A DNA stretch of 64,000 bases, from IMG/VR virus record IMGVR_UViG_3300045988_107973; one strand, 5' to 3'. Origin of the DNA: a virus. Under the pieces are notes generated by a model, which saw only the letters and a program-made list of their open reading frames with translations, was not told the origin of the DNA and searched no databases. Of this stretch, positions 20,018 to 64,000 are shown piece by piece (the stretch's first letter is position 1; every line of letters begins with the position of its first letter). Both the position numbers and the translations under genes were made by a program.

Positions 20018-20086
20018 AATAGACATTTTATCGTGATTTGGCAACAAATAAATGACGATAATACGTTAAATAAAGGGAGAAAAACG

Positions 20087-22363: not shown

Positions 22364-22446
22364 GGGGATATGGCGGAATTGACAGACGCAAACGATTCAA
22401 ACTCGTTCGGGAAACCATGTGGGTTTAAATCCCACTATCCCTACCA
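22364..22446 (+). tRNA. tRNA-Leu (anticodon CAA), type II, CCA encoded
   Basis: Hand-folded. Acceptor GGGGATA/TATCCCT. D-arm TGGCGGAATTGACAGACGC is nearly identical to the E. coli tRNA-Leu D-arm. Anticodon stem AACGA/TCGTT with loop TTCAAAC. T-arm GTGGGTTTAAATCCCAC. 3' end ACCA. Confidence 0.55.
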
Positions 22447-22522
22447 GTTCATTTACAGATGAGCATGAGTTAGAATGGCAAATCGGAAAGACGGTTGACT
22501 CTTGGACAGACAGGGTTGATAT

Positions 22523-22610
22523 GCCGCAGTGATGGAGTGACATACATTTCCCGCTTAAACCGGGACGCCTGAAACATGGATCGTGGGTTTGAATCCCACC
22601 TGCGGCACCA
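22523..22610 (+). tRNA. tRNA-Leu (anticodon TAA), type II, CCA encoded
   Basis: Acceptor GCCGCAG/CTGCGGC. Anticodon stem TCCCG/CGGGA with loop CTTAAAC. 17-nt variable arm. T-arm GTGGGTTTGAATCCCAC. Confidence 0.55.
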
Positions 22611-22613
22611 TAT

Positions 22614-22687
22614 CCAGAATGTAGTGTAATGGCAGCACGCTGCGTTTGGGACGCAGAAGAGCGATTCGAATTCGACATTTTGGACCA
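22614..22687 (+). tRNA. tRNA-like element with a Pro(TGG)-type anticodon arm; T-arm non-canonical (possible pseudogene)
   Basis: Acceptor CCAGAAT/ATTTTGG + A + CCA pairs perfectly. Anticodon arm CTGCG-TTTGGGA-CGCAG matches E. coli tRNA-Pro. No 5-bp T-stem could be found around TTCGAAT. Confidence 0.25.
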
Positions 22688-22783
22688 GTAGAGTATTCCA
22701 TTTGCTTTTCATGAATACCTTCCTATTATTCTTGGCTCTCCAAAAAAACGGAGCAGTAGGACGCAGCAAGCCAAGTTACATAA

Positions 22784-22873
22784 TGAGGGTTCGCCAAGTG
22801 GTAAATGGCATCTGGCTTTGACCCAGACAGCGTGCTTTATAGCCGATCGTCGGTTCGATCCCGACACCCTCAA
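22784..22873 (+). tRNA. tRNA-Gln (anticodon TTG)-like with an abnormal 21-nt variable region
   Basis: U1-A72 acceptor TGAGGGT/ACCCTCA and D-arm TCGCCAAGTGGTAAATGGC resemble E. coli tRNA-Gln. Anticodon stem TCTGG/CCAGA with loop CTTTGAC. T-arm GTCGGTTCGATCCCGAC. The segment CAGCGTGCTTTATAGCCGATC is inserted at the variable position. No encoded CCA. Confidence 0.45.
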
Positions 22874-22878
22874 TTTAT

Positions 22879-22967
22879 GGACACGTGATGGAATCGCAGA
22901 CATGAAAGATTTAGGCTCTTTTGCCGTTAACAGCGGTGTGCCCGTTCAAATCGGGTCGTGTCCACCA
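22879..22967 (+). tRNA. tRNA-Leu (anticodon TAG), type II, CCA encoded
   Basis: Acceptor GGACACG/CGTGTCC. Anticodon stem AAAGA/TCTTT with loop TTTAGGC. Variable-arm hairpin CCG-TTAACAG-CGG. T-arm GCCCGTTCAAATCGGGT. 3' end ACCA. Confidence 0.6.
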
Positions 22968-23066
22968 TTATCAACTTATGGTTGCGTACCGTTTGTTGAT
23001 CTCCTTTACTATTATTCCCGGCTCGCCAGTGATGGTGCAGTAGTGCTTTGTAAGCTGGGTTTTCAT

Positions 23067-23141
23067 GCAGCGGTCGTACAACGGCTAGTACATCAGCCTT
23101 CCAAGCTGAGGATGAGGTTTCGACTACCTTTCGCTGCTCCA
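23067..23141 (+). tRNA. tRNA-Gly (anticodon TCC), CCA encoded
   Basis: Acceptor GCAGCGG/TCGCTGC. D-stem GTAC/GTAC. Anticodon arm TCAGC-CTTCCAA-GCTGA is identical to E. coli glyT. T-arm GAGGTTTCGACTACCTT. Confidence 0.65.
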
Positions 23142-23322
23142 ATCTTGTATGGGTAGGATCTTTAGCGGTCAGATCCGGCCGCGCCTGTGCAAGATACCAC
23201 CCCGAAAGGGGCTAACGAAATTTTCTATGTCAATTATTCTCGGCTCACTTAAAAGAGTGCAGTTGACCTTTGTAAGCCGAGTATCCCAGCCTAGTGATGC
23301 CAGTTGCTAGGTTGGTTCTTAT

Positions 23323-23398
23323 GCGACTGTAGTTCAATTGGTAGAGCGTCAGATTTCCAATCTGAATGTTGCGGGATCGTGCCCCGTCAGTCGCTCCA
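23323..23398 (+). tRNA. tRNA-Gly (TCC)-like second copy with a non-canonical T-loop (ATCGTGC)
   Basis: Perfect acceptor GCGACTG/CAGTCGC. D-arm TAGTTCAATTGGTAGAGC. Anticodon arm TCAGA-TTTCCAA-TCTGA. T-arm GCGGG-ATCGTGC-CCCGT lacks T54/A58. CCA encoded. Confidence 0.4.
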
Positions 23399-23529
23399 CA
23401 CGCAGCCCATGACGCTGCACCGGTTACTCAGAGCCGAAAGGAACCTATATGTTACGACATGGTTGCTAAGAGTGATCATATTGGAACGCGACGTAGCTTT
23501 GATAGTGGGAATTAAATTCTGAGGTATAC

Positions 23530-23598
23530 GGCTGGATAGCTTAATGGTAAAAGCGCTCGGAAACACCGAGAGATGAGGTTCGATTCCTCCGCTGGCAT
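23530..23598 (+). other. tRNA-like remnant (good D-arm and T-arm, no acceptor pairing, defective anticodon arm)
   Basis: TAGCTTAATGGTAAAAGC D-arm and GAGGTTCGATTCCTC T-arm. The anticodon region CTCGG-AAACA-CCGAG has a 5-nt loop. The ends are a direct repeat (GCTGG), not complementary. Confidence 0.2.
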
Positions 23599-23625
23599 CG
23601 CGCCGACGAAAGTCGGCGTTTGCAT

Positions 23626-23702
23626 GGGATAGTAGCTCAGTTGGTCAGAGCTGGCGGCTCATAACCGCTTGGTCGCGAGTTCAAATCTTGCCTGTCCCAC
23701 CA
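23626..23702 (+). tRNA. tRNA-Met (anticodon CAT; elongator or Ile-lysidine type), CCA encoded
   Basis: Acceptor GGGATAG/CTGTCCC. D-arm TAGCTCAGTTGGTCAGAGC. Anticodon stem GGCGG/CCGCT with loop CTCATAA. T-arm GCGAGTTCAAATCTTGC. Confidence 0.6.
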
Positions 23703-46038: not shown

Positions 46039-46830
46039 ATGGTAGTTAAACTGATTACACATACTCCTGACCCTGAAAAGGTGGTAGCTGCCGCTGCAAA
46101 ACTGTGTTACTCCAATTCGAGTATTCAGGATTTGATGGATGGACTGACCGATGAGAAGGTCGATGAGTTTCTGAATCGGCTTTCTAGCCTTGGTCACGCT
46201 AGTCCTACGGAGCACGCGACTTTTACTTTTGGAATTGAAGATGTGAGCCGGTCTTTACTTACCCAGATTACCCGGCATCGCATTGCGTCATTCAGTGTAC
46301 AGAGTCAGCGCTATGTGCGAATGAATAATGTAGAGGTCATCGTCCCTGACGTTATCGATGATGATAGCGAAGCAAGAGAGGTATTCAAACAGGCAATTCA
46401 GACAGCTGAATATTCATATAAGCACCTGTGTCAGATTCTTGAGGACAAGATTACTGAGGAACTAATGGTTGCTGATTCTCGTCTGACTGAGAAAAAAGCA
46501 CGCGCAAAAGCATCCAAGATTGCAAATGAGAATGCACGTTCCGTTTTGCCAAATGCTTGTTCTACGAAGATGATTGTTACAATGAACGCTCGTTCGCTGA
46601 ATAATTTCTTTAACCTGCGTTGTTGTGAGCGAGCGCAGCCGGAAATCAGGGAGCTTGCAACTGAGATGCTGAAGCTTGTTTATCCGATTGCTCCTCATCT
46701 GTTTAAGTGTGCTGGTCCCAACTGCTGTGGTAACGGTTGTACCGAAGGTATGATGTCTTGTGGTAAATCCCATGAGATTCGTGATAAATACAACAAATTG
46801 AAACAGGAGGCATTAAATGGAAACACTTGA
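46039..46830 (+). CDS. thyX: flavin-dependent thymidylate synthase ThyX
   Basis: ThyX signature RHRIASFSVQSQRYV (RHRxxSxxxxSxRY). Confidence 0.75.
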   Translation: MVVKLITHTPDPEKVVAAAAKLCYSNSSIQDLMDGLTDEKVDEFLNRLSSLGHASPTEHATFTFGIEDVSRSLLTQITRHRIASFSVQSQRYVRMNNVEVIVPDVIDDDSEAREVFKQAIQTAEYSYKHLCQILEDKITEELMVADSRLTEKKARAKASKIANENARSVLPNACSTKMIVTMNARSLNNFFNLRCCERAQPEIRELATEMLKLVYPIAPHLFKCAGPNCCGNGCTEGMMSCGKSHEIRDKYNKLKQEALNGNT

Positions 46831-47257
46831 CGAAATTAAGAAGAACGTCGAGCACCCGTCTTATTACGGCGGTGCAGACAATCCCTATGAGGCTATCAAA
46901 GTGCTGCGAGAGTGGCAACTGGACAAGGATGCTTATCTTTGGAATGTTGGTAAATATTTGAGCCGGGCAGGACACAAAGATGGCAATTCTCAACTTCAAG
47001 ATTTGACGAAGGCACGTTGGTATTTGGACTATAAAATCCGGCTTTTAGAGGAACAGCAGAAGGTTGCTGAAAGTGTCGTAGATACGCTAAAGAAGATTCC
47101 TAACGAGGTGACTGATGAGCTGACTACGATGTCGGATTACATTCCTCGTCATGCAAAGCCTGACTATACGGATGATTTGGTTTTCCGTCCAGAAATCCAT
47201 ACTCCAAACATTGAGACTGCCGTCGTTCCTGATTGTGCCGACGAGGTAAAATTTTAA
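46817..47257 (+). CDS. DUF3310-family protein (phage nucleotide-metabolism-associated)
   Basis: HPSYYGGADNPYEAIKVLREW...NVGKYLSRAGHKDG...DLTKARWYL matches the DUF3310 pattern. Often found beside thymidylate synthase genes in phages. Confidence 0.45.
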   Translation: METLDEIKKNVEHPSYYGGADNPYEAIKVLREWQLDKDAYLWNVGKYLSRAGHKDGNSQLQDLTKARWYLDYKIRLLEEQQKVAESVVDTLKKIPNEVTDELTTMSDYIPRHAKPDYTDDLVFRPEIHTPNIETAVVPDCADEVKF

Positions 47258-47385
47258 GAGGTTTACATAAATGAGATACACGAGATACAACTGGGAAGGA
47301 CCATTTGCGGCATTCGCCCTGTTTGTTACAATGTTGATTTTTGGCTTTTCCAAATTTGTTTTAAGATAATCAAGGAGAAAAATAC

Positions 47386-48909
47386 ATGAATATGATGTTT
47401 ATTGCAATTCCTGTCGTTATTGTTCTTCTGGTCGCCTTTGCATTTACTTGCTACAAGAAGGCTCCTCCTACTCAGGCAATTGTCGTAACAGGTTTTGGAC
47501 TGTCTAAGCCGAAAGTTATCTGTGGTCGTGGCGTGTTCGTCCTTCCGGTTATTCAGCGAGCTGACCGTCTGAATATGCGACTGCTCAAGATTGATGTCAA
47601 GACTCCTGAAACCGGTGTCAAGACTAAAGAGGGTGTTTCTCTGTGGCTGGACTCTGTTGTTACTGTTCAGGTTTACTCTGAAAACTCTACTGTAACTGAT
47701 GATGAGATTAAGAGCGCCGGTTGCGAGGATGCAAAGACTTACATTAGTGCTCGTCAGCAGGCTGCTATTTCCAACTTCCTGGGCATGAGTGAAGATGGAA
47801 TCAACGAGAAGATCAACGATGTCCTTCAGGGCAATCTGCGAGAGATTGTCTCTGAGATGACTGTCAACGATATCCTGACTAATCGTAAACAGATGGCAAT
47901 TTCCGTTGTTGAGAATGCTCGTCCCGATCTCGCAAAGATGGGTCTGGAAGTTGTTACTTTTAATGTTCAGGATATCAAGGATGCTATTGATGCTCAGGGT
48001 CATAATCATGGTGTCATCGAGGCAATTGGTGTTCAGCAGGAAGAGCTGGTGAAGAAGCAGGCAGAGATTGCTAAGGCTGAAGCCGCTCGTGATATTGCTC
48101 GCGCTAAGGCAGATACTGCTCGTGAATCAAATGAAAAGGAAATTGAATCTAAGACTGCTATTGCACAGCGTAACAATGAGTATCTTCTGACTCAGGCTGC
48201 TCTGAAGGCAGAGGCTGATAAGGCAAATGCTGATGCAGAAGCTGCTGGTGAGATTCAAATGAATCTGCGTGATAAGGAAATCAAGGAAGCTGAGGCTGAC
48301 GCAGCTATTGCAAAGCAGAAGAAGATGGTTGAGTTGGCCGCTCAGGAAGCAGAAGTTCGTCAGCAGAAGCTGGATGCAGAGATTCGTAAGCAGGCAGATG
48401 CTGATTTGTACAAGCGTCAGAAAGAAGCTGAAGCGAAAAAGTACGAGGCAGAACGTTTTGCAGAATCTGCGAAGTTTGCCAAGGAGCAGGAGGCTGAAGG
48501 TATTCGTATGGTCGGTATGGCCGAGGCAGATGCTATCAAGCAGAAAGGTCTTGCTGAGGCAGAAGCTATGCTAAAGAAGGCTGAGGCTTACAAGCAGTAC
48601 AATGGCGCAGCAATGGGAGAGATGATTATCAAAATTCTGCCTAGCATTGCAGAGCAGGTTGCAAAGCCTCTGGCATCTATTGACAAGGTTTCTATTATCG
48701 GCGGTAATGCTAATGGTGTTTCTGAGATTTCTGGAAATGTCCCAGCAGTCATGGCACAGACTTTTGAGGCTGTCAAGGAAGCCACCGGCATTGATATGCG
48801 AGAAATCGTCCGTGCCAATAGTTACGATGCCAAGGTTACCAAGAATGTGAATCTGGTAAGTGATTCTACTATCACTTCCGACAAAGGTGAGACCCATGAC
48901 GCAGAGTAA
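47386..48909 (+). CDS. flotillin-like SPFH/band-7 protein (N-terminal TM, SPFH domain, long EA-rich coiled coil)
   Basis: N-terminal TM IAIPVVIVLLVAFAF. SPFH-like core. About 200 aa of AEAxxxA repeats typical of FloT/YuaG-type flotillins. Confidence 0.6.
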   Translation: MNMMFIAIPVVIVLLVAFAFTCYKKAPPTQAIVVTGFGLSKPKVICGRGVFVLPVIQRADRLNMRLLKIDVKTPETGVKTKEGVSLWLDSVVTVQVYSENSTVTDDEIKSAGCEDAKTYISARQQAAISNFLGMSEDGINEKINDVLQGNLREIVSEMTVNDILTNRKQMAISVVENARPDLAKMGLEVVTFNVQDIKDAIDAQGHNHGVIEAIGVQQEELVKKQAEIAKAEAARDIARAKADTARESNEKEIESKTAIAQRNNEYLLTQAALKAEADKANADAEAAGEIQMNLRDKEIKEAEADAAIAKQKKMVELAAQEAEVRQQKLDAEIRKQADADLYKRQKEAEAKKYEAERFAESAKFAKEQEAEGIRMVGMAEADAIKQKGLAEAEAMLKKAEAYKQYNGAAMGEMIIKILPSIAEQVAKPLASIDKVSIIGGNANGVSEISGNVPAVMAQTFEAVKEATGIDMREIVRANSYDAKVTKNVNLVSDSTITSDKGETHDAE

Positions 48910-48921
48910 AGGAGTGATTGC

Positions 48922-51117
48922 ATGGAATATGTGATTAAACGTGATGGAACGAAAGTTCCTTTTGATAAAAGTAAGATTGTAAACGCGATTGAGAAGGCAA
49001 TGACGAATACGACTGGAGGAGTTGATTCTCGCGTATCTAACGCCATTGCAGACTACATCGCAGACATCCCTGATACGATGTCTGTAGAGCAGATTCAGGA
49101 TGTGGTTATTGACCAGTTGAAAAATAGCCCTCTTTCGGATGTGGCTGATGCTTATAGTCACTGGCGTATTCTTCGGCAGGAGATTCGTGAGAAGCAGCGA
49201 GCATATGGCGAAATTCTTTCCATCTGTGATGTAGATAATGAGAAGGTCAAGCAAGAGAACAGTAACAAAAATCCTGTTGTGAATAGCGTACAGCGTGACT
49301 ATATGGCTGGCGAAGTCTCCAAAGATCTGAGCTTTAATCTGCTTCTTCCAAAAGATATTGTGGATGCTCACTATGATGGTAGAATTCACTTCCACGATTC
49401 CGACTACTTTGCCCAGCATATGTTTAACTGCTCGTTAGTTAATCTGGAAGATATGTTGCAAAACGGCACTGTGATTTCTGGTACAGGAATTGACAAACCA
49501 CATAGTTTCTCTACAGCGTGCAATATTGCAACCCAGATCATTGCACAGGTTGCTTCAAATCAGTATGGTGGTCAGAGTATTACTCTGTCTCATTTGGCTC
49601 CCTTCGTGGATATCTCTCGAAAGAAGATCGCGGGTGAAGTCTATGAGGAATTTTACGACATGATTCAAAACAATGAGATTGACAAAATGCCAAATCAGGA
49701 GACTATCAATCGAATTGTAGAGAAGCGTTTACATAAAGAAATCGTTGCAGGCGTTCAGACTATTCAGTATCAGGTTATTACTTTGATGACCACCAACGGG
49801 CAGGCTCCTTTTATTACCATTTTTATGTACCTTGATGAAGTTCCTGAAGGCCAGACCCGTGATGACCTTGCAATTATCATTGAAGAAGTCCTTCGTCAGC
49901 GCATTAAAGGTGTGAAGAATGAGACTGGAGCATGGATTACTCCGGCTTTCCCAAAGTTGATTTATGTGCTGGAAGAAGACAACATTCGAGATAATTCTAA
50001 GTATTATTATCTGACTGAACTGGCAGCTAAATGTACGGCCAAGAGATTCGTACCTGACTACATTTCTGAGAAGAAGATGTTGGAGTACAAAGGTGCTTGC
50101 TACCCCTGTATGGGATGTCGCAGCTTCCTGACTCCTGATCGAACCACCGAGAATATTTCTGGTGCCATGAATTGGGAGAAGGGTCACAAGTATTATGGTC
50201 GCTTTAATGCCGGTGTTGTCACCATCAATCTGGTAGATGTTGCTTGTAGCTCTAAAAAGGATGTTTCTGAGTTTTGGAAAATTTTTGATGAGCGTCTTGA
50301 ACTATGCCATCGAGCACTTCAGATTCGGTATAAGCGATTGATGGGTACGCCTTCTGATGTGAGTCCAATTCATTTTCAGCATGGTGCAATCGCACGTTTA
50401 AAGAAGGGTGAAAAGATTGATAAGCTCCTGTTTGACGGATATGCAACTATCAGTCTTGGTTATGCTGGTCTGTACGAGTGTGTAAAATATATGACCGGCA
50501 AGAGCCACACCGACGATGAAGCAAAACCTTTTGCCCTCGAAATCATGCAGCACATGAATGACAAGTGCAATGAGTGGAAAGCCGCTGAAAATATTGATTA
50601 TAGTTTGTACGGAACACCGTTGGAATCCACTACATTCAAGTTTGCTAAGTGCTTACAGAAGAAGTTCGGTATCATTCCAGATGTAACAGACCATGATTAC
50701 ATCACCAATAGCTATCATGTCGTGGTTCGTGAGCATATTGACGCATTCAAGAAGCTGGAGTTTGAGTCTGAATTTCAGCAGCTGTCTCCCGGCGGAGCCA
50801 TCTCGTATATCGAGTGCCCTAATATGACCAACAATATTCCTGCCGTGATGAATGTTATTAAGTACATTTACGACACCATTATCTACGCAGAACTGAATAT
50901 CAAATCTGATTATTGCCAGGTCTGTGGTTACGACGGCGAGATTAAGATTGTTGAAGATAACGGTAAGCTCGTTTGGGAATGCCCGAACTGTGGTAATCGT
51001 GACCAGAATAAACTGAATGTTGCACGACGTACCTGCGGATTTATCGGCACTCAGTTCTGGAATCAGGGTCGCACTCAGGAAATTCGAGATCGAGTGGTTC
51101 ATTTGAGCGATAATTAA
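48922..51117 (+). CDS. nrdD: anaerobic ribonucleoside-triphosphate reductase NrdD (class III)
   Basis: N-terminal ATP-cone (VIKRDGTKVPFDKSKI). C-terminal zinc ribbon CQVCGY...CPNCG. Glycyl-radical motif RRTCGFIG. Confidence 0.75.
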   Translation: MEYVIKRDGTKVPFDKSKIVNAIEKAMTNTTGGVDSRVSNAIADYIADIPDTMSVEQIQDVVIDQLKNSPLSDVADAYSHWRILRQEIREKQRAYGEILSICDVDNEKVKQENSNKNPVVNSVQRDYMAGEVSKDLSFNLLLPKDIVDAHYDGRIHFHDSDYFAQHMFNCSLVNLEDMLQNGTVISGTGIDKPHSFSTACNIATQIIAQVASNQYGGQSITLSHLAPFVDISRKKIAGEVYEEFYDMIQNNEIDKMPNQETINRIVEKRLHKEIVAGVQTIQYQVITLMTTNGQAPFITIFMYLDEVPEGQTRDDLAIIIEEVLRQRIKGVKNETGAWITPAFPKLIYVLEEDNIRDNSKYYYLTELAAKCTAKRFVPDYISEKKMLEYKGACYPCMGCRSFLTPDRTTENISGAMNWEKGHKYYGRFNAGVVTINLVDVACSSKKDVSEFWKIFDERLELCHRALQIRYKRLMGTPSDVSPIHFQHGAIARLKKGEKIDKLLFDGYATISLGYAGLYECVKYMTGKSHTDDEAKPFALEIMQHMNDKCNEWKAAENIDYSLYGTPLESTTFKFAKCLQKKFGIIPDVTDHDYITNSYHVVVREHIDAFKKLEFESEFQQLSPGGAISYIECPNMTNNIPAVMNVIKYIYDTIIYAELNIKSDYCQVCGYDGEIKIVEDNGKLVWECPNCGNRDQNKLNVARRTCGFIGTQFWNQGRTQEIRDRVVHLSDN

Positions 51118-51239
51118 ATAACGTGTAAGTGGTGGGTTGGTGGGATTACATATGAAAGAAATCATTGTTTTCTTTGTGATTGTATGGGTTATCGCCTATT
51201 ACATTTTAAAAGGTAACTATAAAGATTAAGGAGATACTT

Positions 51240-52091
51240 ATGAAGAAATTTATGGCAATTTTCGTTGCATTCCTCATTGCAGTCGGTGCGGTGCTTTGTA
51301 CCGAGCGAGTACATACTGGCTATGTTGGTGTTGTTTATTCTGCAAAGGGTGTTGAGCAGCAGACTATTTCTCAGGGCTGGCATTTCATGAGTCCACTGAA
51401 GCATGTGTCTGAGTTCCCGATTACTCAGCAGCGAGTGGTATTTTCTAATGCTCCGTCCGACTATGGCGTAAAGGAACACGCAGATTGGCACATTGATGCC
51501 CCTGCTAATGGCGGTACGATTGCAATCAACCTGACTGTCAATTATAACTTCCTGCCGGAGCATGTTGTTGAACTGTACACCAAGTTTGGTGGTATGGACG
51601 GTGAGAGCCTGATGGAGAGCAAGATTCAGAACGATATTATTGCTTACGTCAAGGAAGTTACTCCTCAGTTCAGTGTCATGCAGATTTATTCCGATGATCG
51701 AGCAGGTGTGAATACTGCAATCACCAACTATCTGAATGAGAAGCTGACCGCAGAGTATGGAATCAATGTTTCCTCTGCTCTGATTGTGGATGCACAGCCT
51801 GATGATACCCTGATGCAGAAGATTCGCGCAAAGGAGCAGGCAAAGCAGGACGCAGAGATTGCAGAGCTGAATAAGCAGACCGCTCTGGCTCAGGCGGAGA
51901 CTGATAAGGTTAAGGCACAGACGGAAGCTGACGTTAAGATGATTGAAGCACAGGCCGAGGCTGATGCAAATAAGGTGCTTTCCGAGTCTATCACTCCTGA
52001 GCTGATTCAGATGAAGGAAGCAGAAGCTCGTCTGAAGCATGGTTGGGTGACTGTACAGGGTGCTGATACCGTTGTAACTAAGGGTGAGTAA
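51240..52091 (+). CDS. SPFH/band-7 domain membrane protein (HflK/C- or prohibitin-like)
   Basis: Signal/TM N-terminus. SPFH-like core (GYVGVVYS...). C-terminal coiled coil (AKEQAKQDAEIAELNKQTALAQAE). Confidence 0.55.
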   Translation: MKKFMAIFVAFLIAVGAVLCTERVHTGYVGVVYSAKGVEQQTISQGWHFMSPLKHVSEFPITQQRVVFSNAPSDYGVKEHADWHIDAPANGGTIAINLTVNYNFLPEHVVELYTKFGGMDGESLMESKIQNDIIAYVKEVTPQFSVMQIYSDDRAGVNTAITNYLNEKLTAEYGINVSSALIVDAQPDDTLMQKIRAKEQAKQDAEIAELNKQTALAQAETDKVKAQTEADVKMIEAQAEADANKVLSESITPELIQMKEAEARLKHGWVTVQGADTVVTKGE

Positions 52092-54369: not shown

Positions 54370-54738
54370 ATGGCGAAATACATTCCTGAAAATGCTCGAT
54401 GGGCGGATATCACTCCTTTGCTAGATGAGATTGACAGTGGCTTAAAACATATGCGCTTTTATGACGAACAAGATGACTATTCTGATTTTCTAGCAGAAGA
54501 ACGCGAAGATCTACTGAGGCTTCCGAAAGCAGAATCTAATACGGTTCGCGCTATCGCACACTGGGATCACTGGTCATGCGATGACGAAGAAGACTTTGTA
54601 TATCATTGCTCTAACTGTAGTGAACAGTTTTACGAAGATTTCTTTTATCCTCGTGAGAATCCTTGTGTTGGTTCTGAAAAGTATAAACCTTTTAAGTATT
54701 GCCCTTATTGCGGGGCGAAAATGGAGGGCGTTAAATGA
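54370..54738 (+). CDS. hypothetical zinc-ribbon protein; paralog of the 43580..43879 product
   Basis: C-terminal AHWDHWSCDDEED...YCPYCGAKMEG. Confidence 0.4.
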   Translation: MAKYIPENARWADITPLLDEIDSGLKHMRFYDEQDDYSDFLAEEREDLLRLPKAESNTVRAIAHWDHWSCDDEEDFVYHCSNCSEQFYEDFFYPRENPCVGSEKYKPFKYCPYCGAKMEGVK

Positions 54739-55262
54739 ACTACGCTAAAATTGTTCCATGTGATATTGCGAATGGGCCAGGCGTAAGAGTCACGTTGTTC
54801 TGCGCGGGATGTAACCATCATTGCCCCGGCTGTCAGAATCCTACCACATGGGACCCGAATGGTGGTCAGCCATTCACAGATGAAATGCTTGATAAAATTG
54901 TAGATTTACTTCGACCTGATTATATTCAAGGGCTTACGCTCACTGGTGGAGATCCACTATATCCTGAGAACAGAGAAGTTGTTGAGAAAATCGTCCGTCG
55001 TGTATGGGCTGAATTTCAGGACAAAAAAGACGTTTGGCTCTGGACTGGATATAAGTGGGAAGAATTGTGGAATCAGGATGGGCTCGTAGCTGACATTCTT
55101 GCTAACATCAACGTCCTCGTAGATGGTCCTTTTATTGAAGCAGAAAAAGATATTTCACTTCCATACATGGGAAGCAAGAACCAACGAGTAATTGATATTA
55201 AATGGAGTCTTGGATATAAAGAGCCAACCCTTTGGTGGGCTCCAGAAGAGAAAGGAAAATAA
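54735..55262 (+). CDS. nrdG: anaerobic ribonucleotide reductase activating protein NrdG (radical SAM)
   Basis: Product contains CDIANGPGVRVTLFCAGCNHHCPGCQN, the CxxxCxxC cluster typical of NrdG. Confidence 0.7.
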   Translation: MNYAKIVPCDIANGPGVRVTLFCAGCNHHCPGCQNPTTWDPNGGQPFTDEMLDKIVDLLRPDYIQGLTLTGGDPLYPENREVVEKIVRRVWAEFQDKKDVWLWTGYKWEELWNQDGLVADILANINVLVDGPFIEAEKDISLPYMGSKNQRVIDIKWSLGYKEPTLWWAPEEKGK

Positions 55263-57161: not shown

Positions 57162-57899
57162 ATGGAACTTTATAATGATGATTGTCTGAAAATTATGCCA
57201 CAAATCACAGATAAATCTATCGATATGATTCTTTGTGACTTGCCATATGGTGTCACTCACAATAAATGGGATTCTGTGATTCCTTTCGACAAGCTGTGGG
57301 AACAATACAATCGAATCATCAAAGATAACGGTGCGATTTGTCTGTTTGCTGATGGAATGTTCATGGCAGATCTTATGGAAAGTAACCGCAAAATGTGGCG
57401 ATATAATCTCGTGTGGGATAAAGTTCTTTCATCTGGATTTTTGAATGCAAAACGAATGCCACTCCGCAGTACAGAAGAAATTGTTGTTTTTTATAAGAAG
57501 CTTCCTACATATAATCCACAATTCACAGAAGGTAAACCGCTCCACGGAATGGGCACAAAATATAAAGAAGGAAACCGTAAAAACAACAACTACGGCAACT
57601 TTAATTCTACAAATCAGGCATCTGCGGAAAGAGCGGGTGACACGAAAAAGTATCCGAAATCGCTGGTGACATTTCAAAGAGCACATAGTTCCGTTATGCT
57701 CCATCCAACCGAGAAACCGGTAGCTTTGATGGAGTGGCTTATCAGTACTTACACAAATAAGGGTGAGATCATTCTTGATAATTGTATGGGTGTTGGTGGA
57801 AGTGGTATTGCCGCTAAAAATCTTGAACGAAATTATATTGGTATAGAACTTGACCAAAAATGTTTTGAGATTGCCAAAGAAAGAATCGAGGTATCATGA
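57162..57899 (+). CDS. DNA methyltransferase, N6_N4_Mtase family (beta-class; N6-adenine or N4-cytosine)
   Basis: Motif IV ILCDLPYG (DPPY type). C-terminal motif I HPTEKPVALMEWLI...DNCMGVGGSG. Confidence 0.65.
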   Translation: MELYNDDCLKIMPQITDKSIDMILCDLPYGVTHNKWDSVIPFDKLWEQYNRIIKDNGAICLFADGMFMADLMESNRKMWRYNLVWDKVLSSGFLNAKRMPLRSTEEIVVFYKKLPTYNPQFTEGKPLHGMGTKYKEGNRKNNNYGNFNSTNQASAERAGDTKKYPKSLVTFQRAHSSVMLHPTEKPVALMEWLISTYTNKGEIILDNCMGVGGSGIAAKNLERNYIGIELDQKCFEIAKERIEVS

Positions 57900-61675: not shown

Positions 61676-62569
61676 ATGATTATTGATTGCAAATCTATTG
61701 CACAAGATATCAAAAATAAAATCAAGAATATTATCGCAGAAGCTGACTACGCTCCTGTTTTACTTATTTATCAAGTAGGGGACAACCCTGCATCCAATGC
61801 TTATATTCGCGGCAAGCTGCGTGACTGTGAAGAGGTTGGAATCGAAGCGGAGCTTATCAAGCTGCCAGAAAATATTACCGAAGATGAATTGAACAACAAG
61901 ATCTTAGAAGATTATAAGATCTTAGAAGATTATAATTGGGAAGATGTGGACGGTATTATTGTTCAGCTCCCGCTGCCAAAACATATCAATCCTAAGAATA
62001 TCATTATTCCAGACGAACTTGACGTTGATGGTTTTAATTCTACATCACCATTTCAGCCTTGCACTCCACTTGGCGTTATGAAGATTTTTGATTCCATCGG
62101 TTACAATTTGGATGGCAAGAATGTGCTTGTATGTGGTCAGTCTGATATTGTGGGTCGTCCACTGGTCAATATGCTGATTAAGCGGCATTGTAATGTGATT
62201 AGTATTAACAGCTCTACGGAGAAATACGTTCGTGATGAAATGCTTCTTCGTGCAGATGTTCTTATAACAGCTACTGGTCGCATGAATCTTATCACAGAGA
62301 ACGACCTTGATTATAAATGGTGCACTGAAATCAATGGCTATGAAAACTCTGGCTCTTGTCCAGATCTTATTATTGACGTTGGTATCAATTACAAGGATGG
62401 CAAGCAGTATGGGGATTGCTCCGATGAGCTGCGCTCTGAGAAATATAACCATTGCTTCGATATTACCCCTCGTATCGGCGGAGTTGGACTTATGACACGT
62501 GCCATGCTACTTTATAATGTATGTGTGGCAAGGTATGGGGAAGAGAAGATGGAGGAGGTGATTGAATGA
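61676..62569 (+). CDS. folD: bifunctional methylenetetrahydrofolate dehydrogenase/cyclohydrolase FolD
   Basis: FolD-typical motifs YIRGKLRDCEEVGI, DVDGFNSTSPFQPCTPLGVMKI, VLVCGQSDIVGRPL, and GGVGLMTRAMLLYN (GG-G-TxAxL). Contains an 18-bp in-frame tandem duplication (KILEDYKILEDY). Confidence 0.7.
   Translation: MIIDCKSIAQDIKNKIKNIIAEADYAPVLLIYQVGDNPASNAYIRGKLRDCEEVGIEAELIKLPENITEDELNNKILEDYKILEDYNWEDVDGIIVQLPLPKHINPKNIIIPDELDVDGFNSTSPFQPCTPLGVMKIFDSIGYNLDGKNVLVCGQSDIVGRPLVNMLIKRHCNVISINSSTEKYVRDEMLLRADVLITATGRMNLITENDLDYKWCTEINGYENSGSCPDLIIDVGINYKDGKQYGDCSDELRSEKYNHCFDITPRIGGVGLMTRAMLLYNVCVARYGEEKMEEVIE
61898..61933 (+). repeat. perfect 18-bp tandem duplication inside folD
   Basis: aagatcttagaagattat occurs twice in tandem. 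Confidence 0.85.
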
Positions 62570-62760
62570 AGGAAGTCCCAATTTGGGAAAAGACGACCTT
62601 GACGTTAGATGAAGCGGCTGCTTACACGGGGATTGGGGTCTGCCGACTAAGAGAGATTACTGATGATGAAAACTGTCCATTGGTACTTTGGGTGGGGAAT
62701 AAACGTCTTATCAAACGTAAAGCTCTCGAAAAATATATAGATCAAACGTATTCTGTTTGA
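62566..62760 (+). CDS. xis: excisionase-like HTH DNA-binding protein (Xis/HTH_17-type)
   Basis: LTLDEAAAYTGIGVCRLREIT is an Xis/MerR-type helix-turn-helix. 64 aa, directly upstream of the integrase. Confidence 0.5.
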   Translation: MKEVPIWEKTTLTLDEAAAYTGIGVCRLREITDDENCPLVLWVGNKRLIKRKALEKYIDQTYSV

Positions 62761-62766
62761 AATATA

Positions 62767-62805
62767 GGCTCTGATGTGATATACTCATGGTGTCACACCA
62801 GAGCT
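62767..62805 (+). promoter_or_regulatory. imperfect inverted repeat (13-bp arms) spanning a TATACT -10-like box upstream of the integrase: candidate operator/P_int
   Basis: GGCTCTGATGTGA-tatactcatgg-TGTCACACCAGAGCT with 11 of 13 arm matches. Confidence 0.4.
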
Positions 62806-62833
62806 TCTTATATAACGTAAGGAGTTCTGCATC

Positions 62834-64000
62834 ATGATAAGACGTAAAGATAATAATGGCAAAGTTTTAAAAGACGGCGAGAGCCAGAGAAAGGATGGGA
62901 GATACCAATATAGATGGACAAACAAACTTGGAAAACGCTCAATAATATACGCCACTTCACTTAAAGAATTGAGAGAAAAAGAAGCTGAAATCCAAGAAAA
63001 ACTTAATTTGGGTATAACATCTACTTCAAAAATCACAGTGTACCAATTAGCAAAAAGACATCTCGAAGAAACAAAACTCACTATTAGGCCAAGCAGCTAT
63101 AAAACAAAATCGCAGAATTTGAAAATCTTTCAGAATCACCTAATTGGGGAAATGAATGCAACCGATATTTTAGTGCGTGATGTAAAACAATTTGCACGAG
63201 AATTGGATAACGAAGGATATTGTTATACAACAATCAGAGATGTCATGTCTTTAGCTAGACCGGCATTTCAAGAAATGTTTGATGAGAATATAATTCCTAG
63301 AAATCCATTCGTTTTTAAATTAAATACAGTTGTCAAATGTGACTCAAAAGAAAAAGAAATATTAACAGAAGAGCAGTATCAAAATCTGATCAAGTTCATG
63401 AAATCTAGTCGAGTATATAAAAGGCATGTTGGCATGGTGATGCTTTTGCACGAGACAGGACTTCGAGCAGGAGAATTATGCGGGCTAACAAAAAAGTCAT
63501 TTGATTTTGATAACAACACTGTTACTATATCTCATCAGATGGTGTACGATGGAAAGAGCGGCGGGCTGTATTTAGCACCTACAAAAACAGAAAGTGGGAT
63601 AAGGACTATCCCATTATCTAAAGACGCCATCATTGCTTTTGAAGAAGCGATAAAACAACGACCGATTGTAAAAGCAGAGAGAATAATAGATGGGCAAGCC
63701 GACTTCTTGTTTATAGCAAAAACTGGAAGGCCCTATACAAATAAAAACCTTGTTAGAATTTTTGAAGGACTAATCAAAGCCTATAATAGTTGCCATGATG
63801 AACCATTGCCTGAAGTCACTGCCCATAGTATGCGTCACGAATATTGTACACGACTTGTCAAAGCCAAGATGGATGTTAAATCGGTTCAATACCTCATGGG
63901 ACATTCGTCGCCCGATATAACCTTGAAAGTGTATACTCATATCTTAAAAGAAGAGACCGAAGCAGAGGCAATCAAACAGTTTAATAGGATTGTTTCCTAA
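62834..64000 (+). CDS. int: tyrosine integrase (phage integrase family, N-terminal arm-binding/SAM-like + catalytic domain)
   Basis: Catalytic-domain segments LLHETGLRAGELCGLTKKSFDF and HSMRHEYCTRLVKAKMDVKSVQYLMGHSSPDITLKVYTHI (R...HxxR...Y). Stop is TAA at 63998-64000. Confidence 0.75.
   Translation: MIRRKDNNGKVLKDGESQRKDGRYQYRWTNKLGKRSIIYATSLKELREKEAEIQEKLNLGITSTSKITVYQLAKRHLEETKLTIRPSSYKTKSQNLKIFQNHLIGEMNATDILVRDVKQFARELDNEGYCYTTIRDVMSLARPAFQEMFDENIIPRNPFVFKLNTVVKCDSKEKEILTEEQYQNLIKFMKSSRVYKRHVGMVMLLHETGLRAGELCGLTKKSFDFDNNTVTISHQMVYDGKSGGLYLAPTKTESGIRTIPLSKDAIIAFEEAIKQRPIVKAERIIDGQADFLFIAKTGRPYTNKNLVRIFEGLIKAYNSCHDEPLPEVTAHSMRHEYCTRLVKAKMDVKSVQYLMGHSSPDITLKVYTHILKEETEAEAIKQFNRIVS

What the first reader, a model, noticed from the sequence alone, without database searches (positions are those of the whole stretch)
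47386..52091. Two SPFH-family membrane proteins (a full flotillin-like protein and an HflK/C-like protein) flanking the class III RNR gene in a phage
47386..48909 has an N-terminal TM helix, an SPFH core and ~200 aa of AEA-rich coiled coil, the FloT/YuaG flotillin architecture. 51240..52091 is a second, shorter SPFH protein with signal/TM and a coiled-coil tail. They bracket nrdD. The activase nrdG is displaced 3.6 kb downstream behind a block of small zinc-ribbon, lipoprotein and membrane genes. Phage-encoded flotillin pairs are rarely described. They could scaffold membrane microdomains for the oxygen-sensitive RNR or replication machinery, or act in superinfection exclusion.
Basis: partly seen in the sequence, partly recalled or inferred. 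Interest (0 to 1): 0.6.

Follow-up and report, generated by a model that had tools for sequence, protein, structure and literature searches.

The report
Two independent SPFH membrane scaffolds in prophage
A large temperate gut phage carries a host-derived flotillin and a common phage prohibitin-like protein on either side of its anaerobic ribonucleotide reductase gene, but the two are separate, interchangeable membrane-protein cargo genes with no detectable link to the reductase.

Summary
47386-48909 is a full-length flotillin: N-terminal anchor, SPFH domain and Flot domain, collinear with human flotillin-1. 51240-52091 is a second SPFH protein, nearer to prohibitin than to HflK/C. They flank nrdD, and nrdG lies 3.6 kb downstream.

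- The two proteins are distant paralogues (17% identity).
- The positive-inside rule puts them on opposite membrane faces.
- Across about 27 sister phages they assort independently. The slot before nrdD holds the flotillin, LemA plus a 258-aa protein, all three, or nothing. The second SPFH protein is present in about 40% of flotillin carriers.
- Outside this lineage, 68 of 69 phage loci with the second protein have no RNR hit within 10 kb.

The prohibitin-like family is common in phages (491 of 50,697 records, PHROG 200). The flotillin type is rare (10 records). It is 74-77% identical to Oscillospiraceae chromosomal flotillins, has taken on phage base composition and is under strong purifying selection.

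New here: each SPFH gene is preceded by a tiny single-pass membrane ORF. Such an ORF precedes 52 of 73 phage prohibitin-like genes against 4.6% of other genes.

Function is untested. These are most likely membrane-scaffold accessory modules.

The parts
47271..47369 (+). 32-aa single-pass membrane micro-ORF (MRYTRYNWEGPFAAFALFVTMLIFGFSKFVLR). It starts 13 nt after the DUF3310 stop and ends 16 nt before FLOT.
   Evidence: Read. The reading frame and sequence are conserved upstream of FLOT in the FLOT-only relatives examined; one allele (L022) carries a 1-nt frameshift. Its start region, RBS and first codons match the lemA start of relative L033, so it may be a LemA N-terminal remnant. Translation is not shown.
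47386..48909 (+). FLOT: full-length FloT-type flotillin (507 aa). N-terminal hydrophobic anchor followed by KK, SPFH domain, about 200 aa of A/E/K-rich helix, Flot C-terminal domain.
   Evidence: It is 74-77% identical to Gemmiger, Subdoligranulum and Dysosmobacter flotillins. dN/dS is 0.02-0.05 within the phage lineage; GC3 is 0.43 against 0.82-0.88 in the bacteria.
48922..51117 (+). nrdD, class III anaerobic ribonucleotide reductase (context gene, not part of the SPFH modules).
   Evidence: It is present at the same position in relatives without FLOT and/or SPFH2.
51152..51229 (+). 25-aa single-pass membrane micro-ORF (MKEIIVFFVIVWVIAYYILKGNYKD) ending 10 nt before SPFH2.
   Evidence: Comparable 20-75 aa hydrophobic ORFs lie directly upstream of 52 of 73 SPFH2-like phage genes against 44 of 960 other ORFs in the same loci. 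They occur in 5 of 9 SPFH clusters at 50% identity.
51240..52091 (+). SPFH2: prohibitin-like SPFH protein (283 aa, PHROG 200). N-terminal signal-anchor (MKK plus hydrophobic stretch), SPFH core, one long helix, conserved C-terminal motif ...MKEAEARLKHGWV.VQG.
   Evidence: Near-identical copies occur on more than 1000 metagenome contig blocks.
54735..55262 (+). nrdG, NrdD activase (context gene).

Best explanation
The window is the early/replication arm of a roughly 125-140 kb temperate phage (prophage) of human-gut Clostridia. nrdD is flanked by two recombination-prone cargo slots that collect membrane-protein genes.

Slot A lies between DUF3310 and nrdD. In this genome it holds a micro-TM ORF plus a flotillin. 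The flotillin was captured long ago from an Oscillospiraceae-type host lineage and has been kept under strong purifying selection.

Slot B lies after nrdD. It holds a micro-TM ORF plus a prohibitin-like SPFH protein, a two-gene module widespread in phages.

Inferred mechanism:
- Both proteins oligomerise into the ring or dome cages typical of SPFH proteins and fence off patches of the host cytoplasmic membrane.
- The flotillin sits on the cytoplasmic face, where at about 75% identity it could co-assemble with the host's own flotillin.
- SPFH2 sits on the outer face, enclosing its small single-pass partner and/or host clients.
- Both are transcribed with the nucleotide-metabolism and replication genes. 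They act as independent accessory modules that reorganise or stabilise the membrane and its protein quality control during infection.
- Their position next to nrdD is a matter of genome architecture, not function.

Shown: identity, fold, origin, selection, gene order, independent assortment, micro-ORF association. Inferred: oligomerisation, topology, time of expression, physiological role.
For: - Identity and fold.
- Phage and temperate lifestyle: replication genes, Tn916-type integrase at 62834-64000, host metabolic genes immediately beyond the integrase in L149, IMG/VR contigs of 70-141 kb.
- Host origin of FLOT: 79% identity to the Gemmiger formicilis ATCC 27749 copy, which sits among thiamine-biosynthesis and ABC-transporter genes. 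The phage clade groups with these bacterial flotillins. GC3 has shifted to the phage value and dN/dS is 0.02-0.05 with dS up to 0.74.
- Independent assortment: among FLOT-retrieved relatives, SPFH2 is present in 6 of 16 tabulated loci, and also in L032. Among SPFH2-retrieved relatives, slot A holds LemA+258aa in 8 of 10, nothing in 2 of 10 and FLOT in 0 of 10. L033 carries LemA+258aa+FLOT.
- No RNR link: 68 of 69 SPFH2-like loci outside the lineage have no RNR hit within 10 kb.
- One operon: the gaps in DUF3310/micro-ORF/FLOT/nrdD/micro-ORF/SPFH2/next ORF are 10 to 34 nt. The promoter and terminator scan is at chance level.
- Opposite topology: FLOT has an uncharged N-terminus and KK after the helix. 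SPFH2 and its relatives have a basic N-terminus.
- Micro-TM partner: (52/73 against 4.6%, Fisher p about 1e-43, not phylogenetically independent).
- Kayvirus also has a small TM protein, MbpV, next to its SPFH protein MbpS (PMC7150955).
Against: - No functional data exist for any phage SPFH protein. The papers found call the role unclear (PMC13239085, PMC8540360).
- Topology rests on the positive-inside rule only.
- The FLOT structure prediction failed (pLDDT 51), so its fold rests on sequence homology.
- FLOT always directly precedes nrdD (12-nt gap) in every FLOT-bearing relative, so a lineage-specific functional coupling cannot be excluded.
- In two annotated large phages (Bacillus Thrax1, Mammaliicoccus phi127) the SPFH gene lies 0.5-3.4 kb from class I RNR genes.
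- The RNR screen used tblastn with only two RNR queries and would miss divergent RNRs.
- Expression timing is inferred from gene packing only.
Confidence: 0.5

Rival explanations
1. Superinfection exclusion or prophage-encoded defence. One or both membrane proteins, especially the outward-facing SPFH2 with its micro-TM partner, block DNA entry or abort infection by competing phages.
For: - The phage is temperate.
- The slots hold alternative membrane proteins in sister genomes (TM75, LemA+258aa), as is usual for exclusion or defence cargo.
- SPFH2 is predicted to face outwards.
- Near-identical SPFH2 copies also occur at 65-79% identity in unrelated, smaller gut phages, which indicates horizontal spread.
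Against: - No PADLOC match.
- The genes lie inside a tightly packed replication and nucleotide-metabolism operon in the same orientation, with no promoter or terminator of their own.
- The family is also common in strictly lytic phages such as the Kayvirus group (PMC7150955).
Confidence: 0.15
2. FtsH modulation in the manner of HflK/C or prohibitin. The SPFH cage(s) enclose the host FtsH protease and alter degradation of phage regulators or membrane proteins, which tunes the lysis-lysogeny decision or protects phage proteins.
For: - The closest solved relatives of SPFH2 are prohibitin and HflK/C cages, both of which regulate AAA proteases (PMC12048511, PMC13376388, 76 listings).
- The phage is temperate.
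- The predicted type II topology matches HflK/C and prohibitin.
- This idea has been raised for phage SPFH genes before (PMC8540360).
Against: - SPFH2 is a single gene, not a K/C or PHB1/2 pair.
- No FtsH-related gene lies nearby.
- The family occurs in many obligately lytic phages.
- There is no experimental support.
Confidence: 0.12
3. Lysis-timing control. The micro-TM proteins are holin- or antiholin-like peptides, and the SPFH cage sequesters or releases them to control membrane permeabilisation.
For: - Micro-TM ORFs with a charged cytoplasmic tail directly precede most SPFH2-like genes.
- In Kayvirus the SPFH gene mbpS and the holin-like small TM gene mbpV lie between the endolysin and tgl genes, in the same eight-gene region as holA (PMC7150955).
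Against: - Here the module is in the replication and nucleotide-metabolism operon, far from any lysis gene seen in the window.
- In other phages it lies in replication modules.
- The micro-ORFs are not shown to be translated.
Confidence: 0.1
4. One reading: the two SPFH proteins scaffold a membrane microdomain for the oxygen-sensitive class III RNR or for the replisome.
For: - FLOT and nrdD are separated by 12 nt and are adjacent in every FLOT-bearing relative.
- SPFH genes in several unrelated phages sit in replication modules, and twice near class I RNR genes.
Against: - Sister phages keep nrdD and nrdG with neither FLOT nor SPFH2, or with only one.
- 68 of 69 other SPFH2-like loci have no RNR within 10 kb.
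- SPFH2 is predicted to face away from the cytoplasm.
- Established knowledge: NrdD and NrdG are soluble enzymes with no known membrane requirement.
Confidence: 0.05

Closest known systems
Bacterial flotillin FloT (YuaG) / eukaryotic flotillin-1/2 cage (PDB 9bq2, 9l3g)
   Same: N-terminal membrane anchor, SPFH domain, long EA-rich helices and Flot C-terminal domain. End-to-end alignment to flotillin-1 (E 3.7e-49) and to the NCBIfam FloT model. 74-77% identical to chromosomal flotillins of Oscillospiraceae.
   Different: Phage-encoded, with phage-like base composition. Scores 260 bits against the 700-bit FloT equivalog cut-off. No NfeD gene beside it; a 32-aa micro-TM ORF precedes it. In relatives it is linked to, or replaced by, LemA plus a 258-aa two-TM protein (PHROG 3886).
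Prohibitin / HflK-HflC / erlin cages (PDB 8rrh, 9urz, 7vhq, 9vvj)
   Same: SPFH2 has an N-terminal anchor, an SPFH core and a single long wall helix. Best sequence-profile and structure matches are prohibitin, then erlin, then HflK/C. The predicted type II topology is like HflK/C and prohibitin.
   Different: One gene, not a heteromeric pair. 283 aa. No evidence of an AAA-protease client. A family-specific C-terminal motif (KHGW). Phage-borne, with a micro-TM partner.
PHROG 200 phage 'lipoprotein'/prohibitin family, including Kayvirus MbpS with neighbouring MbpV (PMC7150955)
   Same: SPFH2 is a clear member (E 1.9e-54). The family is present in 491 phage records. In Kayvirus, as here, a small TM protein gene is adjacent. 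Function is untested in all cases.
   Different: The Kayvirus copy lies in the lysis region, whereas this one lies in the nucleotide-metabolism operon. The 'lipoprotein' label does not fit this member: A-V-L-C is not a lipobox, and the Cys is not conserved.
SPFH-NfeD operons (e.g. E. coli QmcA-YbbJ, PDB 8z5g; B. subtilis yuaF-floT)
   Same: An SPFH gene immediately preceded by, and probably co-translated with, a small membrane-protein gene. QmcA is a detectable relative of SPFH2.
   Different: The partners here are 25-60 aa single-helix peptides, too short to hold the NfeD OB-fold domain. Homology to NfeD was not tested.
Flotillin family protein of crAss-like phage csAssE-Sib (OR575929.1)
   Same: Another phage-annotated flotillin, lying in a replication module and preceded by a transmembrane protein gene.
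   Different: Only 28% identical over the SPFH domain, so an independent acquisition. Different phage group and host.

Membership tests
Flotillin (FloT type) | SPFH/Band 7 domain | tested here: met
   PF01145 E 2.7e-19, 70.3 bits against cut-off 23.6.
Flotillin (FloT type) | Flotillin C-terminal domain after a long EA-rich helical region | tested here: met
   PF15975 35.1 bits against cut-off 27. Residues 201-400 are 58-74% A/E/K/Q/R. Helices 211-303 and 317-429 appear in the otherwise poor AF2 model.
Flotillin (FloT type) | Full-length collinearity with a solved flotillin | tested here: met
   Flotillin-1 9l3g_A, query 27-490 to chain 6-435, E 3.7e-49.
Flotillin (FloT type) | N-terminal membrane anchor with the bulk of the protein cytoplasmic | tested here: inconclusive
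   A hydrophobic segment at 1-26 followed by KK, conserved in bacterial homologues. Orientation is inferred from the positive-inside rule only.
Flotillin (FloT type) | NCBIfam FloT equivalog score | tested here: not met
   NF058507 259.9 bits against cut-off 700. It is a flotillin-family member, not a FloT equivalog by that criterion.
Flotillin (FloT type) | Adjacent NfeD partner gene | tested here: not met
   The upstream genes are DUF3310 and a 32-aa ORF; downstream is nrdD. The Gemmiger chromosomal copy also has no called upstream ORF in its 210-bp gap; its other upstream and downstream neighbours carry unrelated Pfam domains or none.
Flotillin (FloT type) | Oligomeric cage / focal membrane microdomains | not testable with these tools
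   Needs microscopy, cryo-EM or multimer modelling.
HflK/HflC | Closer to HflK/C than to other SPFH subfamilies | tested here: not met
   Profile against PDB: prohibitin 1.8e-25, erlin about 1e-15, HflK 2.9e-7, HflC 4.7e-5. The Foldseek top hits are prohibitin.
HflK/HflC | Two paralogous subunits encoded together | tested here: not met
   A single SPFH2 gene. FLOT is a remote paralogue (17% identity) with the opposite predicted topology.
HflK/HflC | Association with FtsH | not testable with these tools
   No ftsH-like gene was seen among the scanned genes of the window. An interaction needs experiment.
PHROG 200 (phage prohibitin-like SPFH) | Profile match over the full length | tested here: met
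   E 1.9e-54, residues 1-280 to profile positions 81-349 of 379. tblastn finds 491 phage records, 469 of them covering at least 80% of the query.
Bacterial lipoprotein (the PHROG 200 label) | Lipobox [LVI][ASTVI][GAS]C | tested here: not met
   The sequence is A-V-L-C20, and the Cys is absent from the four aligned relatives.
Known anti-phage defence systems (PADLOC) | Match to any PADLOC model | tested here: not met
   No hits for either protein.

The most novel reading that the evidence does not exclude
Phages carry a conserved, so far unannotated two-gene unit: a 25-60 aa single-pass micro-protein plus an outward-facing prohibitin-like cage. The unit builds a closed membrane compartment around the micro-protein, or around a host client such as FtsH, to control membrane permeability, proteolysis or DNA entry. 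This lineage has in addition domesticated a host flotillin, interchangeable with a LemA/PHROG-3886 pair, that co-assembles with host flotillin on the inner face. That would be the first defined function for viral SPFH cages.
Probability: 0.2. Interest if true: 0.6.

Novelty: new member of a known kind. Interest (0 to 1): 0.35.

Why it matters
SPFH proteins occur in about 1% of sequenced phage records. Papers keep noting them without assigning a function. Solved cage structures (flotillin, prohibitin, HflK/C, erlin, stomatin) now make mechanistic hypotheses testable.

This locus offers three things:
- a clean natural experiment, because sister genomes exist with every combination of flotillin, LemA pair and prohibitin-like gene;
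- a clear case of a host flotillin kept under strong purifying selection in a phage;
- a recurrent micro-protein partner that gene callers and annotators have missed.

It does not give a membrane-bound RNR story.

Tried and rejected
- AlphaFold2 on FLOT, with 36 homologues mostly 69-77% identical (two at 95%), gave pLDDT 51 and pTM 0.21. The SPFH core was not modelled, so no fold search was run on it.
- phmmer of SPFH2 alone against PDB found nothing. A 5-sequence profile was needed.
- PADLOC gave no hits.
- The promoter and terminator scan of 45.5-56.5 kb was at chance level (22 promoter-like sites against 23.9 expected; 8 terminator-like sites against 6.9).
- The host was not identified. The one genome-contig scan went on FLOT and points to Oscillospiraceae. 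However, the phage is about 42-44% GC and those genomes have GC3 of 0.82-0.88, so the real host may be an unsampled lower-GC relative.
- The 16 IMG/VR contigs (68-389 kb) with 75-77% identical flotillins have ORFan-rich flanks: a Y-family polymerase, a PLD nuclease and an MBG-repeat giant protein. I could not decide whether they are phages, other mobile elements or chromosome.
- Literature searches for LemA together with flotillin or SPFH, and for functional work on phage SPFH proteins, found nothing beyond annotation-level remarks. One search, on phages of Gemmiger and Faecalibacterium, was not useful.
- A recent duplication as the origin of the two SPFH genes is rejected.
- A decaying hitch-hiker gene is rejected for FLOT (dN/dS 0.02-0.05).
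Full report
**1. What is at the coordinates**

All long ORFs in this part of the window are on the + strand and tightly packed. The order is:
- ThyX, 46039-46830
- DUF3310, 46817-47257
- FLOT, 47386-48909
- nrdD, 48922-51117
- SPFH2, 51240-52091
- about ten small ORFs
- nrdG, 54735-55262
- dUTPase, then a DNA methylase at 57162-57899

Upstream lie a DnaB-like helicase, RecJ-like exonuclease, PolC-type polymerase, RecD-like helicase, ATP-dependent ligase, an Pnkp/RNA-ligase protein and eight tRNA genes. The window ends with FolD (61676-62569) and a Tn916-type tyrosine integrase (62834-64000).

Near-identical DNA is found on IMG/VR viral contigs of 70-141 kb. In one assembly, bacterial carboxyltransferase, biotin-carrier and OadA-like genes follow directly after the integrase (L149). 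The element is therefore a large temperate phage seen both free and integrated, from human-gut samples.

**2. The two proteins**

FLOT (507 aa):
- It passes the Pfam thresholds for Band_7 and for the flotillin C-terminal domain.
- It aligns over its whole length to the NCBIfam FloT model, at 260 bits against a 700-bit equivalog cut-off.
- It aligns to human flotillin-1 and flotillin-2 of the solved cage structures (E 3.7e-49 and 1.9e-40).
- It has one hydrophobic segment (1-26) followed by KK, and 200 residues rich in A/E/K/Q/R.

SPFH2 (283 aa):
- It has a Band_7 domain (E 7e-24) and is a strong member of PHROG 200 (E 1.9e-54).
- An AlphaFold2 model built on 67 diverse relatives is confident (pLDDT 92.4). 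It shows a TM helix, an SPFH core and a 62-residue helix.
- Foldseek ranks the human prohibitin complex first, then erlin, HflK/C and stomatin cages.
- A sequence profile against PDB gives the same order: prohibitin 1.8e-25, HflK 2.9e-7.

"HflK/C-like" should read "prohibitin-like". The PHROG label "lipoprotein" does not fit: A-V-L-C is not a lipobox and the Cys is not conserved.

The AF2 run on FLOT failed for lack of alignment diversity (pLDDT 51), so its fold assignment rests on sequence.

**3. Are they a pair?**

- They are remote paralogues. BLASTP finds only low-complexity helix matches, and hhalign gives 96.8% probability at 17% identity over the SPFH core.
- FLOT and all its homologues have an uncharged N-terminus and a conserved YKKAPP after the helix. 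This implies N-out/C-in with the SPFH domain cytoplasmic, as for bacterial flotillins.
- SPFH2 and its relatives have a basic N-terminus (MKK, MSKTKS, MKKEEK and so on). This implies a signal-anchor with the SPFH domain outside, as for HflK/C and prohibitin.
- This topology is an inference from the positive-inside rule. If it is right, the two proteins cannot share one cage.

**4. Population evidence**

I compared about 27 sister loci of this phage lineage: L001, L002, L021-L036, L051, L052, L055, L056, L069, L070 and L072-L078 (tabulated).

Slot A, between DUF3310 and nrdD, holds one of four things:
- FLOT alone: this window and most FLOT-retrieved loci.
- LemA plus a 258-aa two-TM protein (PHROG 3886): 8 of 10 SPFH2-retrieved loci. 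This is the most abundant form, since SPFH2 sequences are indexed in more than 1000 contig blocks.
- All three: L033.
- Nothing: L069, L075.

Slot B, after nrdD, holds SPFH2 in 6 of 16 FLOT-retrieved loci, or 7 of 17 counting L032. In the remaining 10 of the 16 it holds instead a 72-75 aa multi-TM protein without SPFH2, and some genomes carry both.

nrdD and nrdG are present throughout. Every combination exists, so neither SPFH gene depends on the other, and nrdD depends on neither.

A LemA / 254-aa / 120-aa / flotillin cassette also occurs together on an unrelated 108-kb contig (L003). Its LemA is 52% identical and its 254-aa protein 40% identical to the phage versions. LemA, the PHROG 3886 protein and flotillin therefore look like a recurring membrane-gene set.

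**5. Origin and selection of FLOT**

- The closest cellular homologues are flotillins of Gemmiger formicilis (79% by tblastn), Subdoligranulum variabile, Dysosmobacter segnis and an unnamed Clostridiales bacterium.
- The Gemmiger copy lies among thiamine-biosynthesis and ABC-transporter genes, which is housekeeping chromosome.
- In a neighbour-joining tree the phage alleles form one clade beside these bacterial sequences. Phage-to-bacterium identity (74-77%) is similar to the identity between the bacterial genera (77-78%).
- The phage gene has GC3 of 0.43 against 0.82-0.88 in the bacteria.
- Within the phage clade dS reaches 0.74 while dN/dS is 0.02-0.05.
- The gene was therefore captured long ago, has adapted to the phage genome and is functionally constrained.
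- One allele (L001/L002, 456 aa) lacks residues 348-398 of the helical region.

**6. How common, and is there SPFH-RNR synteny?**

Frequency:
- In 50,697 phage records, tblastn finds SPFH2-like genes in 491. These include Staphylococcus Kayvirus, Bacillus, Enterococcus, Streptococcus prophages and haloarchaeal viruses.
- FLOT-like genes occur in 10 records. Five cover the query at 33-37% identity, and several of the records are short, unannotated fragments.
- In the 1.84-billion-sequence representative library, SPFH2 has 1,915 cluster hits at E up to 1e-3.
- Papers have listed SPFH genes in phages since 2006 (PMC1524935). They still call the role unclear (PMC13239085), or speculate about HflKC-like lysogeny control (PMC8540360) or help for Sec-dependent export (PMC7150955).

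- I fetched 80 IMG/VR loci with 10-kb flanks around SPFH2-like genes and searched them with NrdD, NrdG and a class I NrdA.
- The 11 loci of this lineage have nrdD next door.
- Of the other 69 loci, one has an RNR hit.
- Several have DnaB or PolC within 10 kb.
- Annotated examples place the gene in replication modules: Clostridium phage Amboise, crAss-like csAssE-Sib and Streptococcus phi3396. Two of them place it 0.5-3.4 kb from class I RNR genes: Bacillus Thrax1 and Mammaliicoccus phi127.
- The general pattern is therefore "early/replication region", not "RNR". The screen is limited by tblastn sensitivity.

**7.

The two 120-130 nt "gaps" before FLOT and SPFH2 each contain a tiny hydrophobic ORF with its own Shine-Dalgarno sequence: 47271-47369 (32 aa) and 51152-51229 (25 aa).

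- The first is conserved in frame upstream of FLOT in the FLOT-only relatives examined (one allele, L022, has a 1-nt frameshift). It begins like LemA (MRYNW...), and the DNA around its start matches the lemA start of L033. It may be a retained LemA N-terminal helix.
- The second recurs, with sequence divergence that tracks SPFH2 divergence, in other phages.
- A scripted test found a 20-75 aa ORF with a strongly hydrophobic 17-mer ending within 160 nt upstream of the start, or overlapping it. This held for 52 of 73 SPFH2-like genes against 44 of 960 other ORFs of at least 120 aa in the same loci.
- The positives fall in 5 of 9 SPFH clusters at 50% identity, so the count is not driven by one clade. 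The genes are still not independent samples.
- Many of these ORFs overlap the SPFH start by 4 nt.
- The longer ones have a basic juxtamembrane stretch and an acidic tail.
- They have no PHROG family, or only weak matches.
- Kayvirus has the analogous MbpV (102 aa, TM plus basic tail) in the same small gene cluster as its SPFH protein MbpS.
- This resembles SPFH-NfeD operons in layout, but the peptides are too short for an NfeD OB-fold domain.

**8. Expression context**

With the micro-ORFs counted, the gaps from the DUF3310 stop to the ORF after SPFH2 are 13, 16, 12, 34, 10 and 34 nt. The promoter and terminator scan is at chance level. The simplest reading is one transcript with the nucleotide-metabolism genes, which means expression during lytic development. 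This is an inference, and it weighs against a lysogen-expressed moron.

**9. Conclusion**

- The interpretation as a functional flotillin pair serving the class III RNR is not supported.
- The locus is best described as two independent SPFH scaffold modules, each with a micro-TM ORF, sitting in two variable membrane-cargo slots of a temperate gut phage.
- One module is a domesticated host flotillin, which is uncommon in phages. The other is a member of a common phage family, predicted to be prohibitin-like and outward-facing.
- Their physiological role is not known. The candidates are general membrane organisation or homeostasis, FtsH modulation, exclusion and lysis timing. I rank general membrane scaffolding first and the RNR idea last.
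- This is a modestly interesting locus. Its best use is as a natural presence/absence series for working out what phage SPFH cages do.

Noticed in passing
window 47271-47369 and 51152-51229; L064, L079-L146: Unannotated 25-60 aa single-pass membrane micro-ORFs directly precede phage prohibitin-like SPFH genes (52 of 73 against a 4.6% background). One also precedes the flotillin here.
   Followed up: yes
L033 6707-7985; L055 6035-7316; L003 6158-7864: LemA (PHROG 1383) plus a 254-258 aa two-TM protein (PHROG 3886) occupy the same slot as the flotillin in sister phages. In L033 and in the unrelated contig L003 they occur together with a flotillin, which suggests a recurring LemA / PHROG 3886 / flotillin membrane gene set.
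   Followed up: partly
L032 9536-12640; L033 9536-12607; L071, L074, L089 (nrdD region): nrdD itself is mosaic in this lineage. Alleles are about 98-100%, about 80% and only 27-29% identical to the window's protein. In L032 and L033 the gene is interrupted by an insertion of about 840-900 bp (intron, intein or homing endonuclease not determined).
   Followed up: no
window 46039-46830; L025-L028, L034-L036 and others: Two very different thyX alleles (about 95% and about 34% identical to the window's ThyX) occupy the same position in closely related genomes.
   Followed up: no
window 20033-22297 and 22364-23702: A 754-aa polynucleotide kinase-phosphatase/RNA ligase (PHROG 8238) lies immediately upstream of a cluster of eight tRNA genes (Leu x3, Pro, Gln, Gly x2, Met). 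This looks like a tRNA-repair and tRNA-supply unit.
   Followed up: no
window 61676-64000; L149 10001-15724: FolD, a Tn916-type Xis (in relatives) and a tyrosine integrase end the window. In L149, bacterial carboxyltransferase, biotin-carrier and OadA-like genes follow the integrase, so this roughly 130 kb phage is temperate and integrates next to a decarboxylase operon.
   Followed up: partly
L059, L061, L063 3147-4322 (- strand): An IS110-family transposase is inserted in the small-gene block upstream of thyX in some relatives.
   Followed up: no
L037-L050, L053, L054 (IMG/VR contigs of 68-389 kb): Flotillins 75-77% identical to FLOT, with intermediate GC3 (0.48-0.59), lie in ORFan-rich regions. 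These hold a Y-family polymerase, a PLD-type nuclease and a 1523-aa MBG-repeat protein. It is unclear whether these are large phages, other mobile elements or chromosome.
   Followed up: partly
L079-L099: SPFH2 copies 65-79% identical to the window's occur in unrelated, smaller (30-85 kb) gut phage contigs with none of the other queried window proteins detected within the flanks. This indicates horizontal movement of the micro-ORF + SPFH module.
   Followed up: partly
L001 10001-11371; L002 778-2148: A 456-aa flotillin allele lacks residues 348-398 of the helical region but is otherwise 95-100% identical to the full-length alleles, so cage-wall length may vary naturally.
   Followed up: no
proteins P0007 (786 aa) and P0021 (776 aa): Flotillin homologues are listed with extra AAA (PF00004) or prismane (PF03063) domains. 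These may be real fusions or merged gene calls.
   Followed up: no
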